Below, one piece after another: positions 43,559 through 61,609 of a stretch of DNA of 64,000 bases. The translations under genes were made by a program, and so were the position numbers. Origin of the DNA: Promethearchaeia archaeon (lineage in GTDB: Archaea; Asgardarchaeota; Lokiarchaeia; Sigyniarchaeales; SOKP01); contig JBATUM010000088.1 of the NCBI GenBank assembly GCA_049671145.1, positions 13,801 through 77,800 of the forward strand, in the 5' to 3' direction. Position 1 is the stretch's first letter; each line of letters opens with the position of its first letter. The notes under the pieces are model-generated. The model made no database searches and had not been told where the DNA came from. It saw only the letters and a program-made list of their open reading frames with translations.

Positions 43559-45010
43559 TTAATTTTGAACATTTAAATCTTTTTTAGATTTCAATTTAAA
43601 ACTTCTTAATTCTTTCAAAATGACGTTATCCCCTTTTTTTATAATATTTTTAACACTTAAAATCCCCACAATTACAGATCCTTTTGTTCCAAATGGACTA
43701 GTAATTTTTGTAAAAGGAGGCTCTAATTTTCGCCCTACAATTTTTTTAGCGCCTATTAGACTTTGTGCTAAACCACTAGAAATTATACCTTGAGCATGTG
43801 TTGGATTTTGGATAATCCCCTTTTTTATTTTATATTTATAAAGTAATGGCGGTTCTTGATGTATTTTTGTTAACTCTGCCGATCCCAATATCCTTAAAGT
43901 TGTTGGAGGCAAATCTAATCGACTTAATAACATGATAGTTTTTTCTTTACCAATTAAGATTCTCTCATTTAACCATAAAAAAGCTCGAAAATTATTTAAA
44001 TCATTTTTTATGCTCATTTGAATTTTCTTTCCGTTGAATTCATAATAAGGGTATATAAATCCTGCTGTAGTAAACATTCCTATTGTTACATGGAGTTGAG
44101 TACCAAAATGGGTTTCTGCTTTAAATAATTTGTTTTTATTTACTTTCACTTCAATTAAATCACAGTAATCAAAAGCACCTTTATTGTCTGTTGCATAACA
44201 CCCCCTGTATATCTTCTTTGCGTCCAATCCTTTAATATTAATCCCAATTCTATCACCCGCTTTTGCGATTTTTACTTCTTGATGAAAGATTTGAATTGAT
44301 TTAACTCTCCCTGAAATTCCTAAAGGCATTATATATATTTTTTGATTTAATTCTAATTTCCCCCTTAATAATGTGCCCGTTATTATTGTCCCTCTCCCTT
44401 TTATCGAAAAATGGTGATCTATGGGTATTTTGATACTCCCTCTGAGTTCTCTTTTTATTTCAAGACCTTTAATTTTTTCTAGTATTCCACCTTTTAATTT
44501 TTCAAATCCTATTTTTTCTTTGGCAGATACTGCAAATATAGGTATTTGTGCACCATAAGATGTTGATTGAAAGAAATTTCTTGTTTTTTCCATTTCCTGC
44601 TTCATATCACCTTTAAATAGGTCTATTTTATTAAGTACAACTATGATATCTTTAATATTTAACGCCTCTACCATTATTAAATGCTCACCGGTTTGAACTT
44701 GAGGTCCTTTATTAATGTCTATCACGATTATAGCGCAATCAATTATTTCTACCGAAGAAGCACTTATTTTTATTAAATCTGCATGACCAGGACCATCAAC
44801 CAATGATACTAAATAATCATCCAATACAAAACTTGAAAACCCTAAATCGATAGTTATACCTCTTTGTTTACTTTGTGGATGAGCATCAATCCCAGCAGTC
44901 GATATTATTTCACTTAACACAGAAGCTATCGCAGTTTTACCACAATCAATGTGTCCAAACAATCCAATATGGATCGGAATTAATTTCTCAACGTCAATCA
45001 TAAGAATCAC
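43559..45010 (-). CDS. selB: Selenocysteine-specific elongation factor SelB (archaeal type)
   Basis: 483 aa. G1 GHIDCGKT, QSKQRGITIDLGFSSF, G3 DGPGHADLI, GPQVQTGEHL, G4 NKIDL. These closely parallel methanogen SelB as I recall it (ESQKRGITIDIGFSAF..DAPGHADLI..GPKTQTGEH). The size fits aSelB. tRNA-Sec and SepSecS lie 4 kb away. Confidence 0.8.
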   Translation of the reverse strand: MILMIDVEKLIPIHIGLFGHIDCGKTAIASVLSEIISTAGIDAHPQSKQRGITIDLGFSSFVLDDYLVSLVDGPGHADLIKISASSVEIIDCAIIVIDINKGPQVQTGEHLIMVEALNIKDIIVVLNKIDLFKGDMKQEMEKTRNFFQSTSYGAQIPIFAVSAKEKIGFEKLKGGILEKIKGLEIKRELRGSIKIPIDHHFSIKGRGTIITGTLLRGKLELNQKIYIMPLGISGRVKSIQIFHQEVKIAKAGDRIGINIKGLDAKKIYRGCYATDNKGAFDYCDLIEVKVNKNKLFKAETHFGTQLHVTIGMFTTAGFIYPYYEFNGKKIQMSIKNDLNNFRAFLWLNERILIGKEKTIMLLSRLDLPPTTLRILGSAELTKIHQEPPLLYKYKIKKGIIQNPTHAQGIISSGLAQSLIGAKKIVGRKLEPPFTKITSPFGTKGSVIVGILSVKNIIKKGDNVILKELRSFKLKSKKDLNVQN

Positions 45011-49249: not shown

Positions 49250-49342
49250 GGCCCTTGACGGTTAGAGTGGTCTCTGACGCTGGGCTTCAAACCCAGTTAT
49301 CCTGCGGAGGGATAGGGGTTCGATTCCCCTCGAGGGCCGCCA
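49250..49342 (+). tRNA. tRNA-Sec (anticodon UCA at 49287-49289), 9/4 fold, CCA encoded
   Basis: 9-bp acceptor stem GGCCCTTGA/TCGAGGGCC (one G-U). 7-bp D stem GTTAGAG/CTCTGAC with 4-nt loop TGGT. 6-bp anticodon stem GCTGGG/CCCAGT, loop CTTCAAA. Long variable arm TATCC-TGCGGAG-GGATA. 4-bp T stem GGGG-TTCGATT-CCCC. Discriminator G followed by CCA. Confidence 0.9.
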
Positions 49343-49359
49343 ATTTTTATAATACTAGC

Positions 49360-50736
49360 GTGATAAATTTGATTGATTTTAATAAAATTATTGATTATTT
49401 TAAAAGCACACCTATCCCTCAAAATATGTTGAATAGAGGGCAAGTTGTTTTAAATGAGTTTTTAAATCCTATTAAAATTTTATTTGAGCAGAAAAATGTT
49501 CCTATGGAACCTTGGAGTGATGAGCAAATTAAATTTTTCTTACTCGCCCTCTCGAATATGGATACAGATAAAGATTTTAAAGCAGCAAGGGTAGGTGAAA
49601 GAGAAGCAAGAATTGCATCTAAAATACATTTAAAAACCTCAGCAGGATTCTGTCATGGTGTAGGCAGAAGTGGTTTTCTGACGGCTCCTCAACCAAAGGC
49701 TCCCGGTGGCTCAATTATGTATGAAATAACTAATTACTTAGCGAGAGACTTTCTTAAAAAATTTGGTTTACCTAATATAAAAAGTGCTATAACTGTGCCG
49801 TTATGTACAGGAATGTCTTTAGCTTTATGCATCGGAGCGCTTAGACCAGATTGGAATATTAAAGACTTAAATAATAAAAGAACTGTTCTTGTTCCTCAAA
49901 TTGATCATAAATCTCTTATTAAGGGACTGGAACTAATGGGTATAAAAAGAAAAACTATCGAAGGTAAGGTATTTGGTGATGCAGTAAGGATTCCAGTTGA
50001 AGATATTAAATTAAGTATGGATAAAGATTGTTTTGCGGTTATTTCAGTGACAAGTTTCTTCCCTCCTCGCGAGCATGATAACATCAAAGAGATTAGTAAA
50101 TTTGCTAAAGAAAATAATTTGGTTCATATCGTAATTAATGCATATGGGGTTCAAAGTTCAGAATGGATGGATTTAATTCGTTCAGGAATCGATGCAGGAA
50201 GAGTAGATGCAATCATACAATCAACTGATAAAAATGTACTTTCTCCAGTAGGTAGTGCTATTATTGCTTCCCCAAATAAGGAAATAATAACTAAAATTAG
50301 TCAAGCGTATGCAGGACGCGCTTCTGCTACGCCTGTAGTAAATTTTTTAATCTCTATGCTCTCTTTAGGTACTAAAGGATATCAAAGATTAATGATTAAT
50401 CAACAGAAAAACAGAAAATTATTAGAAGAAAAGATGAATGAAGTTGCTAGCAAATTAAAAGAAAGAATTTTAGATGTAATTAACCCAGTAGCCGTAGCAA
50501 TGTCTTTAAAGAATTTGAAAAAAGAACAATTATCTAATTTAGGAGGAGCTTTATATAATTTAAGAGTCACGGGACCTAGGGTCTATAATCCAGAAGAAAA
50601 TGTTTTTGGAACGTGTTGTTCAAATTATTTAACACCTTATATAGTAATGAATGCCGCAATAGGCGCAACCTCTGAAGATATAGTCTTAGCAGTTGAAAGA
50701 TTTGAAAAGGCATACGCTCAAATTATTCAGAAATAA
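49360..50736 (+). CDS. O-phosphoseryl-tRNA(Sec) selenium transferase (SepSecS)
   Basis: Colinear with methanogen SepSecS as I recall it: LNEF, MDTDKD, RVGEREARI.SKIH, SAGFCHGVGRSG, PQPKAPGGSIMY, PLP-lysine context QSTDKNVLSP, YAGRASATPVVN, LYNLRVTGPR, YIVMNAAIG. The track ORF start (49255) lies inside tRNA-Sec. I place the start at the in-frame GTG at 49360 (VINLIDFN, compare MLDFN); TTG 49369 or ATG 49426 are alternatives. Confidence 0.85.
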   Translation: MINLIDFNKIIDYFKSTPIPQNMLNRGQVVLNEFLNPIKILFEQKNVPMEPWSDEQIKFFLLALSNMDTDKDFKAARVGEREARIASKIHLKTSAGFCHGVGRSGFLTAPQPKAPGGSIMYEITNYLARDFLKKFGLPNIKSAITVPLCTGMSLALCIGALRPDWNIKDLNNKRTVLVPQIDHKSLIKGLELMGIKRKTIEGKVFGDAVRIPVEDIKLSMDKDCFAVISVTSFFPPREHDNIKEISKFAKENNLVHIVINAYGVQSSEWMDLIRSGIDAGRVDAIIQSTDKNVLSPVGSAIIASPNKEIITKISQAYAGRASATPVVNFLISMLSLGTKGYQRLMINQQKNRKLLEEKMNEVASKLKERILDVINPVAVAMSLKNLKKEQLSNLGGALYNLRVTGPRVYNPEENVFGTCCSNYLTPYIVMNAAIGATSEDIVLAVERFEKAYAQIIQK

Positions 50737-51514: not shown

Positions 51515-51589
51515 ATTTAGATTAAAGATTAATTTCTGTTAATTCAATAGTATTGTTTAAACTCATTCTATTTTAATAACAAAAAAAGT

Positions 51590-51741
51590 GGTCCAGGGGG
51601 GATTTATTCTTTAGAGAAGATTTTTCTCTTCTATTGAACCCCCGATCTCGGGTTTTTACGTATACAGACAAGTTTTTTATTATTGTGTGTCTGTAGGGCC
51701 TTATAAGACCCGCGCTTTAACCAAGCTGAGCTACTGGACCT
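51590..51741 (-). tRNA. tRNA-Ile (anticodon UAU, + strand 51704-51706) with two introns
   Basis: Minus strand. Acceptor GGTCCAG/CTGGACC; U8 A9. D arm GCTC-AGCTTGGTTA-AAGC (one C-A mismatch). Anticodon stem CGGGT/ACCCG with loop CTTATAA. Variable AGATC. T arm GGGGG-TTCAAAT-CCCCC. Discriminator A. The gene is interrupted by a 47-nt intron at 37/38 (51656-51702) and a 30-nt intron in the T-loop (51605-51634). Mature length is 75 nt. Confidence 0.75.
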
Positions 51742-51940
51742 TTTGAAAGAAAATTTAAAATTCTGAGACTTTTATAAATCTTAATCTCTGTGCTAATGGA
51801 CCTAATAATAATCATATAAAAACACAAAAACATAAAAATTTTTTTATTGTTGTACTCTGTTATATTTATAATTGAAGCATCAAAAAGAAAAAATATATTA
51901 TATTAAATAAATTTGAAAAGGTGATAAAACTATAGCTGAA

Positions 51941-54661: not shown

Positions 54662-55807
54662 ATGGAAAAAGAAATTTTAGCTTGCATTGAGAATAAAAAC
54701 ATAAAGTTTCTTCATTCGGGTCAAATTTCAAAATATACCTTTCCTATGGAAAGACATGAAGCACATCAGAAAAAAATTAGTCATATTATTATTAGGTTTT
54801 TTATTGTTAGTATTTCACCGGATAATAAGATTCTATATCTTGTTCAAAAAAGAAATAAAAAAAAGAAAGAATTTCCAGATTATTTTACTGATTCAGCATC
54901 TGGACATGTAATCTACAAAAAAAATTTAAGCCTAAATAATATCAAAGAAAATGCGAAAAGAGAATTAGAAGAAGAATTTGGAATTCCCCCAAAATCAATA
55001 AAAAAAATGAAATTTTATGATTTAAGCGTTGAATCTAATAATAGAACTACAGAGATAGCTTATACATTTATAGGTTTAGTCCAATACAACATAGAATTAA
55101 AACCTAACTCAGAAGAGTTAGAAATTAAAGAAAGTAGATTTTATACAGAAAAAGAATTAAATGATATATTAGAAAATGAAAAATTAATAGATTATTCAAA
55201 AAGAATATGGGAAAAAATTGCTGAATTAGATATTATCAAATATTTTGAATTAAATAATGATTTAAAAAGAAATAAAAAAACAAAAAATGAAATTGCATTA
55301 TTTATTGGAAGATTTCAGCCATTACATCATGGTCATATATATGTCTTTAATTATTTGTTAAAAAATTTTAACTTAATAAAAGTAGGAGTTGGAAGCTCTC
55401 AGCTTTCTCAAACAAAAACAGATCCCTTTACAAGCAAGGAAAGAGTTCGATTTATTCAAGCCGCTTTAGAAAAAAGAGGAATTTCATCTGAACAATATAA
55501 AATTTACGAAATTCCTGATATTTTTAACGCTAAAAAATGGGTTAATCATGTAGTATCAATAGTAGGAAAATTTGATTTAATTTTTTCTAATAGTGAATGG
55601 GTAAGACAACTATTTCAAAACCAAGGATATAAACTTGGAAGAAAGCTAATTATATTTAAGAAGAAATATAATGGCTCTAACATTAGATCTCTAATTAATA
55701 AACAAAGTTATAACTGGAAAAGTTTAGTTCCAAAAGAAGTATTTAATTTAATGACTGAATTTAACGGAATTCAAAGAATCAAACAGTTATACATTAATTA
55801 TGAATAA
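54662..55807 (+). CDS. Bifunctional Nudix hydrolase (N-terminal) / nicotinamide-nucleotide adenylyltransferase (C-terminal)
   Basis: 381 aa. Nudix box SGHVIYKKNLSLNNIKENAKRELEEEFGI in the first half. Archaeal NMNAT motif ALFIGRFQPLHHGHIYVF and a later SNSEWV in the second half. Confidence 0.75.
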   Translation: MEKEILACIENKNIKFLHSGQISKYTFPMERHEAHQKKISHIIIRFFIVSISPDNKILYLVQKRNKKKKEFPDYFTDSASGHVIYKKNLSLNNIKENAKRELEEEFGIPPKSIKKMKFYDLSVESNNRTTEIAYTFIGLVQYNIELKPNSEELEIKESRFYTEKELNDILENEKLIDYSKRIWEKIAELDIIKYFELNNDLKRNKKTKNEIALFIGRFQPLHHGHIYVFNYLLKNFNLIKVGVGSSQLSQTKTDPFTSKERVRFIQAALEKRGISSEQYKIYEIPDIFNAKKWVNHVVSIVGKFDLIFSNSEWVRQLFQNQGYKLGRKLIIFKKKYNGSNIRSLINKQSYNWKSLVPKEVFNLMTEFNGIQRIKQLYINYE

Positions 55808-56879
55808 ATCAAAATATTTAGAAATTGACGGAGCTTTTGGGGAAGGTGGGGGTTCAATTTTACGTTTAAGTGCTGGATTTTCAGTATTGTTCAACCAACC
55901 AGTAAGAATTAAAAATATTAGAGCTAATCGCCCAAAACCTGGTTTAAGGTTGCAACATCTTATCGGTCTACAAACTTTAGCTAATTTGACAGGGAGTGAA
56001 TTGAAAGCTTTGGGTGGTGAATGTAATATTGGTACTCGAGAACTAATATTTAAGCCAGATTTAAATATTCAAGACAAAATAAAAATTAATGTTAACACCG
56101 CAGCTAGCATTGGTCTATTACTTCAGCCAATTCAAATTGCAAGCTTAAATTTTATGAAAACACCACAAATCGAAATTTTTATTAACGGAGGCGGCACATT
56201 TGGTAAGTGGGCACCAAGCTTAAATTATCTAATGAGTGTAACATACCAGATTTTCAAAAAAAGTGGATTAAATATATCAATTGATATAAACAAGTATGGT
56301 TTTTATCCAAAAGGTGGTGCTTTAACTAAATGTACAATTTTTCCACCAAAAGCTACTTTAAAACCACTAAACCTAAAGGAATTAGGGACAATTGATTTAA
56401 TTGAAGGTGATATAATATTGTCAAATCAATTAAGGCGAAGTGGTAGAAATATTGGAGAGAGGATTAAAAAATCAATAAATTTAGAATTAAAAAATCATCT
56501 AAAAATTGAAACAGATATAAAGTATAAATATGTTGATGCCACTAGTCCTGGTGTGGGTCTTTGTCTCTGGGCTCGTTCAGATACAGGAGCTATTATATCC
56601 TCGGGAACTATTTTAGGTGAGAGAAATATCACTTCAGAAAAATTAGGAAAGAATGCTTCAAAAGAAATTTTAAAATATATCAAGAATGATATAACTGTTG
56701 ATAATCATTTAAGTGACCAATTAATACCTCTAATAGCTTATAATAAAGAGCCATCATCTCTTAGGGTGCTTGAAATTACTAACCATACTAAAACTAATTT
56801 AGAATTAATGAACCTCTTTACCCAGAGAAGTTATGAAATTATTAAGGAAAAAAATTCTTACATAATTGAATTAAATTGA
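55800..56879 (+). CDS. rtcA: RNA 3'-terminal phosphate cyclase
   Basis: 359 aa. LEIDGAFGEGGGSILRLSAGFSVLFNQPVRIKNIRANRPKPGLRLQHL; catalytic-His context DNHLSDQLIPL. 8-nt overlap with the upstream gene. Confidence 0.85.
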   Translation: MNKSKYLEIDGAFGEGGGSILRLSAGFSVLFNQPVRIKNIRANRPKPGLRLQHLIGLQTLANLTGSELKALGGECNIGTRELIFKPDLNIQDKIKINVNTAASIGLLLQPIQIASLNFMKTPQIEIFINGGGTFGKWAPSLNYLMSVTYQIFKKSGLNISIDINKYGFYPKGGALTKCTIFPPKATLKPLNLKELGTIDLIEGDIILSNQLRRSGRNIGERIKKSINLELKNHLKIETDIKYKYVDATSPGVGLCLWARSDTGAIISSGTILGERNITSEKLGKNASKEILKYIKNDITVDNHLSDQLIPLIAYNKEPSSLRVLEITNHTKTNLELMNLFTQRSYEIIKEKNSYIIELN

Positions 56880-61494: not shown

Positions 61495-61608
61495 GCAAGC
61501 GTAGCGTAGCCTGGTAACGCGCTGGCTTGGAGAGGAATAAAAACCAATTTCTACCCCCATTTAGCCAGTGTGGGCAACCACTCGGGGGTTCGAATCCCTC
61601 CGCTTGCG
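61495..61608 (+). tRNA. tRNA-Ser (anticodon GGA at 61529-61531) with a 30-nt intron at 37/38
   Basis: Acceptor GCAAGCG/CGCTTGC. D arm GCGT-AGCCTGGTA-ACGC. Anticodon stem CTGGC/GCCAG. The loop TTGGAG|A is interrupted by 61533-61562. Long variable arm TGTGGGCAACCACTC (class II). T arm GGGGG-TTCGAAT-CCCTC. Discriminator G. Mature length 84 nt. Confidence 0.7.
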
Positions 61609-61609
61609 C

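What the first reader, a model, noticed from the sequence alone, without database searches (positions are those of the whole stretch)
51590..51741. tRNA-Ile with a genomically encoded UAU anticodon, split by two introns (canonical 37/38 plus T-loop)
Seen directly on the minus strand: removing 47 nt (51656-51702) and 30 nt (51605-51634) leaves a clean 75-nt cloverleaf with anticodon loop CTTATAA.

The first insert sits at the canonical 37/38 site and contains an 8-bp hairpin (TACAGACA/TGTCTGTA). The second interrupts the T-loop (TTCAA|...|AT) and also folds into a hairpin (TAGAAGAGA/TCTTCTCTA with one mismatch).

Two points matter:
1. Non-canonical intron positions and multi-intron tRNAs are documented mainly in Thermoproteales-type archaea.
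2. Most archaea decode AUA with a CAU anticodon modified to agmatidine by TiaS. A genomic UAU anticodon is the eukaryotic solution, and eukaryotic tRNA-Ile(UAU) genes characteristically carry an intron needed for anticodon pseudouridylation. Among archaea I recall it only for a few lineages (Nanoarchaeum, Korarchaeum).
Basis: partly seen in the sequence, partly recalled or inferred. Interest (0 to 1): 0.65.

Follow-up and report, generated by a model that had tools for sequence, protein, structure and literature searches.

The report
Two-intron tRNA-Ile(UAU) gene, Asgard archaeon
This is a real isoleucine tRNA gene (anticodon UAU, reads AUA) from an Asgard archaeon, interrupted by two short introns; it is a good example of a known kind of split tRNA gene, not a new kind of element.

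Summary
On the minus strand, 51589-51740 is a 152-nt gene. Removing a 47-nt and a 30-nt insert leaves a 75-nt cloverleaf that ARAGORN calls tRNA-Ile(UAU).

The window is Asgard (Promethearchaeota, Loki-like): the gene lies 1 kb from an aSelB / tRNA-Sec / SepSecS cluster whose best homologues carry those labels.

Syntenic orthologues settle the gene call:
- Two relatives lack the 30-nt T-loop insert exactly, and Rfam's tRNA model scores them 55.5 bits with the remaining insert placed after CUUAUA, so the anticodon is UAU.
- Five intron layouts occur at this one locus. All keep the anticodon-loop intron.
- Four compensatory pairs preserve the spliced cloverleaf.

Both introns place their splice sites two bases 3' of a 4-bp helix, as bulge-helix-bulge geometry requires. 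The motifs are relaxed, though, and are not the predicted minimum-energy folds.

Multi-intron tRNAs in Asgard archaea and intron-bearing archaeal tRNA-Ile(UAU) genes are already documented. This is therefore a new member of a known kind.

I could not determine whether the lineage lacks TiaS, so the eukaryote-like decoding idea is untested.

The parts
51589..51740 (-). Whole tRNA-Ile(UAU) gene: G1 = 51740, discriminator A73 = 51589; 152 nt unspliced, 75 nt spliced; CCA not encoded.
   Evidence: Sequence. ARAGORN calls tRNA-Ile(tat) on the spliced sequence. Orthologues score 55.5 bits with Rfam RF00005.
51701..51740 (-). Exon 1 (positions 1-38): acceptor 5' strand, D arm, anticodon stem 5' strand, loop CTTATAA with anticodon TAT at 51703-51705.
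   Evidence: Invariant in 5 carriers of both inserts. Compensatory pairs 3:70, 7:66 and 28:42 against the L127 clade.
51654..51700 (-). Intron 1, 47 nt, in the anticodon loop (38/39 by helix geometry; 36/37 and 37/38 give the same product). It holds an 8-bp inner hairpin (51688-51695 with 51663-51670). Its 3' segment GTAA (51656-51659) pairs with U33-U36 (51703-51706).
   Evidence: Present in all 12 orthologous loci and diverged in sequence. The structure is 100% paired in 8 distinct sequences, with 3 compensatory pairs in the hairpin and U36:G changing to U36:A. Infernal places the insert after CUUAUA.
51634..51653 (-). Exon 2 (positions 39-58): anticodon stem 3' strand ACCCG, variable loop AGATC, T stem 5' strand GGGGG, T loop TTCAA.
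   Evidence: Only one variable column among carriers (A57G in L126, purine for purine).
51604..51633 (-). Intron 2, 30 nt, in the T loop at 58/59. Its segment GAAT (51606-51609) pairs with G53-U54-U55-C56 (51636-51639), followed by the bulge AA|A. It has an imperfect inner hairpin (51625-51633 with 51612-51620).
   Evidence: Exactly absent from L003, L004 and L127-L132. Found in only 5 contigs: window, L001, L002, L125, L126. BHB scan gives H 4/4 and h = 4 bp, with h' = 0 in the window and 3 bp (strict motif) in L126.
51589..51603 (-). Exon 3 (positions 59-73): AT of the T loop, T stem 3' strand CCCCC, acceptor 3' strand CTGGACC, discriminator A73.
   Evidence: Compensatory pair 49:65.
51581..51587 (-). 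Run of 7 T starting two bases after the discriminator; likely transcription stop.
   Evidence: Sequence only. The role is inferred from the known use of oligo-T as an archaeal terminator.
51753..51778 (-). Two A/T-rich boxes (TTTATAAA 51771-51778, TTTTAAAT 51753-51760) upstream of G1; candidate TATA box region.
   Evidence: Sequence only. Weak evidence in 29% G+C DNA. The bacterial promoter scan was uninformative.

Best explanation
This is a functional tRNA-Ile(UAU) gene of an Asgard (Loki-like Promethearchaeota) archaeon.

Proposed pathway:
1. The gene is transcribed as a precursor of about 152 nt plus leader and trailer. Transcription probably stops at the T7 run. CCA is added after transcription.
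2. Two protein-spliced (bulge-helix-bulge type) introns are removed by the archaeal splicing endonuclease, and the exons are joined by an RtcB-type ligase.
3. Each intron supplies a 4-nt segment that pairs with exon bases just upstream of the 5' cut: U33-U36 with GUAA in the anticodon loop, and G53-C56 with GAAU in the T loop. Both cuts then fall two bases 3' of that 4-bp helix.
4. The mature 75-nt tRNA, probably with a modified U34, reads AUA. AUA accounts for 37 of every 1000 codons in this window.

The anticodon-loop intron is old and always retained. The T-loop intron is a recent gain in a narrow lineage.

Shown here: the gene structure, the exon/intron partition, conservation and covariation.
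Inferred: the enzymes, the exact cut sites, aminoacylation with Ile and any modification.
For: - The spliced sequence is called tRNA-Ile(tat).
- Taxon: SepSecS homologues at 79-97% identity are labelled Promethearchaeota, Lokiarchaeota and similar. An aSelB / tRNA-Sec / SepSecS cluster lies next to the gene.
- The syntenic orthologues L003 and L004 lack the 30-nt insert exactly. They score 55.5 bits with RF00005, with the insert placed after CUUAUA.
- Five intron layouts occur at one locus, all with the anticodon-loop intron.
- Spliced cloverleaf: 100% of cells paired and 4 compensatory pairs.
- Intron 1 structure: 100% paired, 3 compensatory pairs, and U36:G changing to U36:A.
- BHB geometry: for intron 2, H 4/4 plus a 3-nt 3' bulge plus h of 4 bp, and a strict hBHBh' motif in L126. 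For intron 1, H 4/4 with h' of 1-3 bp.
- Among carriers of both inserts, 1 of 75 exon columns varies against 8 of 77 intron columns.
- AUA makes up 34.5% of Ile codons.
- Asgard archaea have the broad-specificity (alpha-beta)2 endonuclease with the L1 loop (PMC5829648).
Against: - Neither junction is a strict BHB in the window. For intron 1, the 3' site sits in a 1x2 internal loop (C32 opposite AA) and h' is a single pair. For intron 2, the 5' site sits in a 2x2 to 3x3 internal loop.
- Predicted minimum-energy folds prefer other pairings. An alternative hairpin (28-33 with the first bases of the intron) is 0.5-5 kcal/mol better in the isolated arm. The strict T-arm register is 2.6-6.5 kcal/mol worse than the MFE.
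- There are no RNA data. Promoter assignment is weak. IleRS charging and the U34 modification are untested.
Confidence: 0.85

Rival explanations
1. Pseudogene: the 30-nt insertion in the T loop inactivated the gene in this lineage and is not removed.
For: - ARAGORN and Rfam do not recognise the unspliced gene.
- The insert occurs in only 5 closely related contigs.
- The 5' splice site is not in a clean bulge in the window, and the BHB register is not the MFE.
- tRNAscan flagged the Atabeyarchaeia Ile-TAT gene 'possible pseudo'.
Against: - Exons are invariant in all carriers except A57G, which keeps a purine at a purine position. Introns carry 8 variable columns and the flanks also vary.
- The insert keeps GAAU plus AA exactly where a BHB needs them in all variants, and L126 forms a strict hBHBh' motif.
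- No other AUA decoder is known for the lineage, and AUA is a major codon.
Confidence: 0.05
2. The anticodon is not UAU. A different splice register (intron after position 34, as ARAGORN proposes for the orthologues) would give the loop CUUAAAA with anticodon UAA.
For: ARAGORN -i calls L003 and L004 'tRNA-Leu(taa) i(37,48)'. Splice registers that keep 4 or fewer loop bases from the 5' exon all give UAA, because the 3' junction reads GTAAAAACCCG.
Against: - No 4-bp helix or bulge supports that register (manual check of this register against the sequence; the BHB scan lists no motif giving that junction).
- Infernal places the insert after CUUAUA.
- The conserved helix U33-U36:RUAA places the cuts so as to give CUUAUAA in all 8 distinct orthologues.
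- Archaeal tRNA-Leu is a class II tRNA with a long variable arm. This tRNA has a 5-nt variable loop and A73.
- ARAGORN also mis-registers the neighbouring tRNA-Ser(GGA) as Pro(tgg).
Confidence: 0.03
3. The gene is functional but is not the lineage's sole or main AUA decoder. TiaS plus tRNA-Ile2(CAU) are also present, so UAU is a supplementary isoacceptor with no eukaryote-like significance.
For: TiaS is widespread in archaea: 413 representatives at E <= 1e-30. Nothing in hand excludes it from this genome. Only 64 kb of the genome and 223 kb of related DNA were seen.
Against: None of the roughly 240 listed TiaS hits from two searches carries an Asgard label, but those lists are biased towards relatives of the queries.
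Confidence: 0.35

Closest known systems
Multi-intron / non-canonical-intron tRNA genes of Asgard archaea (PMC5829648, Fig. 7; PMC11291895: 92-95% of tRNA genes with introns in Atabeyarchaeia and Freyarchaeia; 'Ile TAT, 2 introns' in its supplementary table)
   Same: Same phylum-level group. [quoted passage not shown] Missed or mis-scored by standard tRNA finders. Same anticodon in one listed case.
   Different: Here the lineage is Loki-like. The second intron is in the T loop (58/59). The gene is shown to be conserved and syntenic, with five intron layouts. The published table entry was flagged 'possible pseudo' and not discussed.
[quoted passage not shown]
   Same: Genomic UAU anticodon with an anticodon-loop intron. 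Several scan loci share the intron 3' end CGUARAA|N39, and most intron-bearing ones share an intron start G-R-C-Y complementary to positions 29-32.
   Different: Those genes have one intron, and some Micrarchaeota copies have none. ARMAN-2 has a strict BHB, whereas the Loki junctions are relaxed. The endonuclease type also differs (epsilon2 against alpha-beta).
Thermoproteales multi-intron tRNAs (Sugahara 2008 and Fujishima 2010, as summarised in PMC4090602)
   Same: Introns at D-loop, variable-loop and T-loop positions (20/21, 45/46, 56/57, 59/60 and others). Relaxed hBH / HBh' motifs. Rapid lineage-specific gain and loss.
   Different: Different phylum. No evidence here that the T-loop intron is a transposed copy: there is no second copy in the window or in the 134 fetched loci.
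Eukaryotic tRNA-Ile(UAU), including Cyanidioschyzon merolae with D-, anticodon- and T-arm introns (PMC9602550) and yeast, where Pus1 makes pseudouridine 34/36 only on the anticodon-intron duplex (PMC11408192, PMC4090602)
   Same: UAU anticodon with an always-retained anticodon-loop intron that base-pairs with the anticodon. Extra D- and T-arm introns in C. merolae mirror the Loki layouts.
   Different: No evidence here for pseudouridylation, a Pus1 homologue, or common descent of the introns. This is a resemblance in how it may work, not tested membership.

Membership tests
tRNA (Rfam RF00005) | Cloverleaf with 7-bp acceptor, D arm, 5-bp anticodon stem with 7-nt loop, 5-bp T stem with 7-nt loop, and universal bases (U8, A14, G18G19, U33, GUUCRA, C61) | tested here: met
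   ARAGORN on the spliced sequence. Orthologues with one intron score 55.5 bits against a gathering score of 29. 100% pairing and 4 compensatory pairs. The unspliced window copy itself is not detected.
tRNA-Ile(UAU) isoacceptor | Anticodon UAU at positions 34-36 after splicing | tested here: met
   The Infernal alignment places the insert after CUUAUA. The conserved helix U33-U36:RUAA fixes cuts that give CUUAUAA. ARAGORN's alternative UAA register lacks any supporting helix.
tRNA-Ile(UAU) isoacceptor | Class I body with Ile-type identity elements; charged by IleRS | not testable with these tools
   The 5-nt variable loop, A73, C4:G69 and U12:A23 are present in the sequence. These match E. coli Ile identity rules from my own knowledge. 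Aminoacylation cannot be tested here.
Archaeal BHB (protein-spliced) intron | Central 4-bp helix, with each splice site two bases 3' of it on its own strand | tested here: met
   Intron 1: TTAT (51703-51706) with GTAA (51656-51659). Intron 2: GTTC (51636-51639) with GAAT (51606-51609). Both give the correct mature loops.
Archaeal BHB (protein-spliced) intron | Two 3-nt bulges flanked by outer (h) and inner (h') helices (strict hBHBh') | tested here: inconclusive
   Intron 2 has h of 4 bp and a 3-nt 3' bulge, but h' = 0 in the window; it is strict only in L126. Intron 1 has a 3-nt 5' bulge in L003-type sequences, a 3' site in a 1x2 loop, and h' of 1-3 bp. These are relaxed hBH / HBh'-like motifs and not the MFE folds.
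Archaeal BHB (protein-spliced) intron | Insert precisely absent from orthologous genes, or faster-evolving than exons | tested here: met
   Intron 2 is absent exactly in 7 orthologous loci. Introns have 8 of 77 variable columns against 1 of 75 for exons. Intron 1 has diverged while the exons are nearly identical.
Archaeal BHB (protein-spliced) intron | Cleaved by EndA and ligated by RtcB in vivo or in vitro | not testable with these tools
   No RNA data and no enzyme gene in the window. Broad-specificity EndA in Asgard archaea is known only from the literature (PMC5829648).
Eukaryote-type AUA decoding (UAU with intron-dependent pseudouridine 34/36, no C34 modification system) | Anticodon paired with the intron in the precursor | tested here: met
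   U33-U36:RUAA is paired in all 8 distinct orthologues.
Eukaryote-type AUA decoding (UAU with intron-dependent pseudouridine 34/36, no C34 modification system) | Absence of TiaS and of tRNA-Ile2(CAU) in the genome; pseudouridine at 34/36 | not testable with these tools
   I attempted this. A TiaS query (validated at 676.8 bits against NF040849) returned only hits labelled Archaeoglobi, Methanococcales and other non-Asgard groups in the listed rows. There is no TiaS in the 223 kb in hand.

The most novel reading that the evidence does not exclude
The anticodon-loop intron is an obligatory, ancient partner of the UAU anticodon in archaea (Asgard and at least some DPANN). Its pairing with the anticodon serves the same purpose as in eukaryotes. 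Both the U33-U36:RUAA duplex and the recurrent alternative hairpin (positions 28-32 with the first bases of the intron) would contribute. That purpose is to direct or restrict U34/U36 modification on the precursor so that AUA is read without reading AUG. On this reading, the eukaryotic intron-dependent tRNA-Ile(UAU) system was inherited from the Asgard ancestor and did not arise in eukaryotes, and this lineage lacks TiaS.
Probability: 0.15. Interest if true: 0.7.

Novelty: new member of a known kind. Interest (0 to 1): 0.4.

Why it matters
The gene shows that a Loki-like Asgard lineage decodes the abundant AUA codon, at least in part, with a genomically encoded UAU anticodon. Standard tRNA finders miss the gene, which helps explain the 'incomplete' tRNA sets reported for Asgard MAGs.

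The syntenic series gives a clean natural experiment on tRNA intron gain and loss. It has five intron layouts, a universally retained anticodon-loop intron and a very recent T-loop intron.

If the lineage proves to lack TiaS and the intron proves necessary for anticodon modification, the origin of the eukaryotic AUA-decoding system would become directly testable. As it stands, this is an informative but expected member of known classes.

Tried and rejected
1. Genome-collection scan with GTAGCTCAGN{5,12}AGCGNNNNNCTTATAA.

2. TiaS presence.
- I recalled the A. fulgidus TiaS sequence from memory and validated it against NF040849.
- Searching with it listed only Archaeoglobi.
- The representative search gave 413 family members without names.
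- I picked representatives with AT-rich composition, but the most AT-rich one turned out to be Methanococcales.
- Result: unresolved.

3. Exact-sequence look-ups of two window proteins found nothing on record.

4. I considered the tRNA at 61495-61609 as a second two-intron gene because of a 13-nt extra segment. I rejected this: it is tRNA-Ser(GGA) with its native long variable arm and one intron.

5. I looked for a box C/D guide in intron 1 by eye. No C/D boxes are present.

6. I searched for other copies of the T-loop intron as a test of intron transposition. There is none in the window or in the fetched loci apart from the four orthologous carriers L001, L002, L125 and L126.

7. The bacterial promoter/terminator scan is uninformative for an archaeon.

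8. A strict-BHB reading of both junctions is rejected in favour of relaxed motifs.

9. Covariation support for the alternative hairpin is only modest: 75% of cells paired against 71% in shuffles.

Full report
**1. What is in the sequence**

Read on the minus strand, window 51589-51740 is:

GGTCCAGTAGCTCAGCTTGGTTAAAGCGCGGGTCTTATAA / GGCCC...CGTAAAA / ACCCGAGATCGGGGGTTCAA / TAGAAG...GAATAA / ATCCCCCCTGGACCA

A CTTTTTTT run follows. Removing the 47-nt and 30-nt stretches gives a 75-nt sequence. ARAGORN folds it as tRNA-Ile(tat) with a 7-bp acceptor stem, 5-bp anticodon and T stems, the loop CTTATAA and the T loop TTCAAAT.

The unspliced gene is invisible to ARAGORN, with or without intron search, and to Rfam at both gathering and permissive thresholds.

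Because of A-runs, each intron can be slid by one or two bases without changing the product.

**2. Where the window comes from**

- G+C is about 29% and coding density is prokaryotic.
- The gene lies about 1 kb from an archaeal SelB, a tRNA-Sec and SepSecS. An RNA 3'-phosphate cyclase lies 4 kb away.
- SepSecS homologues at 79-97% identity come from metagenomes and from MAGs labelled Promethearchaeota, Lokiarchaeota and other Asgard names.
- Syntenic contigs also carry Roadblock/LC7 and VPS28 genes.

The organism is an Asgard archaeon of the Loki-like group. I did not determine the exact class.

**3. Orthologues settle the gene call**

The order SepSecS, 226-aa ORF, tRNA (opposite strand), 131-137-aa ORF is conserved in every contig fetched.

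- L001 and L002 carry both inserts. Their exons are identical to the window's, and the only differences inside the gene fall in intron 1.
- A metagenome scan for any 7-37-nt insertion in this T loop found just two more carriers, L125 and L126, with changes confined to the introns plus A57G.
- L003 and L004 (SepSecS 79% identical) lack the 30-nt insert exactly (GGGGGTTC|AAATCCCCC) and keep a diverged 48-nt anticodon-loop intron.
- Rfam's tRNA model scores L003 and L004 at 55.5 bits. It aligns the loop as CUUAUA followed by the insertion, which gives the anticodon UAU with an insert at the canonical place.

More distant orthologues show other layouts:

| Layout | Loci |
|---|---|
| Anticodon loop + T loop | window, L001, L002, L125, L126 |
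| Anticodon loop only | L003, L004 |
| D loop + anticodon loop + variable loop | L127, L129, L130 |
| Two D-region inserts + anticodon loop | L128 |
| D loop + anticodon loop | L131 = L132 |

Every orthologue keeps the anticodon-loop intron. After splicing, the two clades differ by four compensatory pairs (3:70, 7:66, 28:42, 49:65), with 100% of cells paired. Among the four distinct carriers of both inserts, 1 of 75 exon columns varies against 8 of 77 intron columns. This pattern is expected for a functional gene whose inserts are removed.

**4. Splice motifs**

For a bulge-helix-bulge substrate, each cut lies two bases 3' of a 4-bp helix on its own strand.

*Intron 2.* G53-U54-U55-C56 pairs with GAAU of the intron. 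AA|A follows as a 3-nt bulge, and there is a 4-bp outer helix.
- In the window the 5' site lies in a small internal loop. In L126 a 3-bp inner helix completes a strict hBHBh' motif.
- This fixes the intron at 58/59 (51604-51633).

*Intron 1.* The canonical register, C32-A35 with intron positions -3 to -6, fails. U33-U36 pairs 4/4 with GUAA (AUAA in L003 and L004), which places the cuts after A38 and before A39 (51654-51700).
- The 5' bulge is 3 nt in several orthologues.
- The 3' site sits in a 1x2 loop (C32 opposite AA).
- The inner helix is 1-3 bp, followed by an 8-bp hairpin.
- On 8 distinct orthologues this structure is 100% paired. It has three compensatory pairs in the hairpin and U36:G changing to U36:A.

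Both motifs are therefore relaxed (hBH / HBh'-like). That fits the broad-specificity (alpha-beta)2 endonuclease with the L1 loop reported for Asgard archaea (PMC5829648).

They are not the predicted minimum-energy folds. Exact cut sites remain inferred.

**5. The anticodon question**

With introns allowed, ARAGORN calls L003 and L004 'Leu(taa)' by cutting after position 34. I reject that register for four reasons:
- No helix or bulge supports it.
- Infernal disagrees with it.
- The tRNA has a class I body with A73.
- ARAGORN makes the same kind of error on the neighbouring tRNA-Ser(GGA), which it calls Pro(tgg).

**6. Function**

In 55 window ORFs, AUA is 37.2 per 1000 codons and 34.5% of Ile codons, more frequent than AUG. 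A dedicated AUA reader is therefore needed.

I could not determine whether this tRNA is the only one. TiaS searches returned only Archaeoglobi, Methanococcales and other non-Asgard labels in the rows shown, and those rows are biased towards the queries. The 223 kb of related DNA in hand holds no TiaS.

**7. Comparison with what is known**

- Multi-intron and non-canonical tRNA introns are documented in Asgard archaea (PMC5829648; PMC11291895, whose supplementary table even lists an 'Ile TAT' gene with two introns, flagged 'possible pseudo').
- Archaeal tRNA-Ile(UAU) with an intron is known from Korarchaeum and Nanoarchaeum (PMC6000648) and from ARMAN-2, where the precursor is cleaved in vitro (PMC12397907).
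- My capped genome scan returned 21 archaeal loci with this anticodon arm, mostly labelled DPANN. In 13 of them the anticodon stem is not closed directly after the loop, which suggests an intron.
- T-arm and D-arm introns are classic in Thermoproteales (PMC4090602).
- Eukaryotic tRNA-Ile(UAU) always carries an intron that pairs with the anticodon and is needed by Pus1 (PMC11408192). The C. merolae gene has D-, anticodon- and T-arm introns (PMC9602550).

The window gene is therefore a new member of known kinds. What is new is the lineage, the 58/59 T-loop intron of very recent origin, and the syntenic series of intron layouts.

**8. Unexplained**

- In all Loki orthologues the first bases of intron 1 (GGCCC, or GACC) are complementary to positions 28-32. 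The predicted MFE sequesters the anticodon in that alternative hairpin.
- The same G-R-C-Y intron start occurs in most intron-bearing tRNA(UAU) genes among the archaeal scan loci. Several of them also share the intron end CGUARAA.
- Pair counts give only modest support for the alternative hairpin: 75% paired against 71% in shuffles, and covariation score reached or exceeded in 7 of 500 shuffles.
- UUAUAA (positions 33-38) is a palindrome, so a copy of the loop can pair with the loop. Origin of the intron by duplication of the anticodon arm is an idea I did not test.

**9. Verdict**

Novelty is modest. The eukaryote-like decoding reading remains open and can be tested with whole genomes and RNA data.

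Noticed in passing
window 61495-61609 (+): A tRNA with a roughly 33-nt anticodon-loop intron and a 13-nt extra arm. ARAGORN calls it Pro(tgg). The loop TTGGAGA, the long variable arm and G73 make it tRNA-Ser(GGA), and the L003 orthologue is called Ser(gga). This is another case where ARAGORN places the intron in the wrong register.
   Followed up: partly
window 43559-45010 (-), 49250-49342 (+), about 49360-50736 (+): Selenocysteine gene cluster: archaeal SelB, tRNA-Sec (62 bits) and SepSecS. The order is conserved in all related contigs. The longest SepSecS ORF overlaps the tRNA-Sec gene, so the true start is downstream.
   Followed up: partly
window 51654-51710 (-); also L003, L127-L132, and scan loci L018, L023, L040, L060, L081, L100, L105, L119: The first bases of the anticodon-loop intron (G-R-C-Y) are complementary to positions 28/29-32 of the anticodon stem. 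The predicted MFE of the precursor forms this alternative hairpin, not the splice-competent fold. The feature recurs in Asgard tRNA(UAU) introns and in those of the archaeal scan loci. Covariation support is modest.
   Followed up: partly
window 51788-51802 (-): A 15-nt near-copy (13/15) of the tRNA's own 5' end, GGTCCATTAGCACAG, starts 62 nt upstream of G1. It reads ...CCATTAGC..., as do the 5' ends of the L127-clade genes. No shuffle out of 2000 reached its score. It may be a relic of a partial duplication.
   Followed up: partly
window 51816-51881: A 66-nt A/T-rich block between the tRNA and the divergent 131-aa ORF (51941+) is almost invariant across all Loki-like orthologous loci, although the flanks diverge. 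It may be a shared divergent promoter or leader, or a small RNA. Rfam has no match.
   Followed up: no
L127 8146-8515 (-), L128 8171-8846 (-), L131 7194-7630 (-): The D-loop inserts of the distant orthologues contain a second D-loop-like segment (AGCTTGGTCAA / AGCTTGGCCAA) next to the first (AGACTGGTTAA). This suggests that these introns arose by local duplication of the D loop.
   Followed up: no
window 55800-56879 (+): An RNA 3'-terminal phosphate cyclase (RtcA) gene lies 4 kb from the split tRNA gene in conserved synteny. It has no known direct role in tRNA splicing, but it is RNA-end chemistry in the neighbourhood.
   Followed up: no
L005-L124 (genome scan): Genes with an Ile-like D arm and a CTTATAA anticodon loop are common well outside the lineages usually cited. 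They occur in many CPR/Patescibacteria, Planctomycetota and Streptomyces, and in Micrarchaeota, Woesearchaeota, Aenigmatarchaeota and Iainarchaeota.
   Followed up: partly
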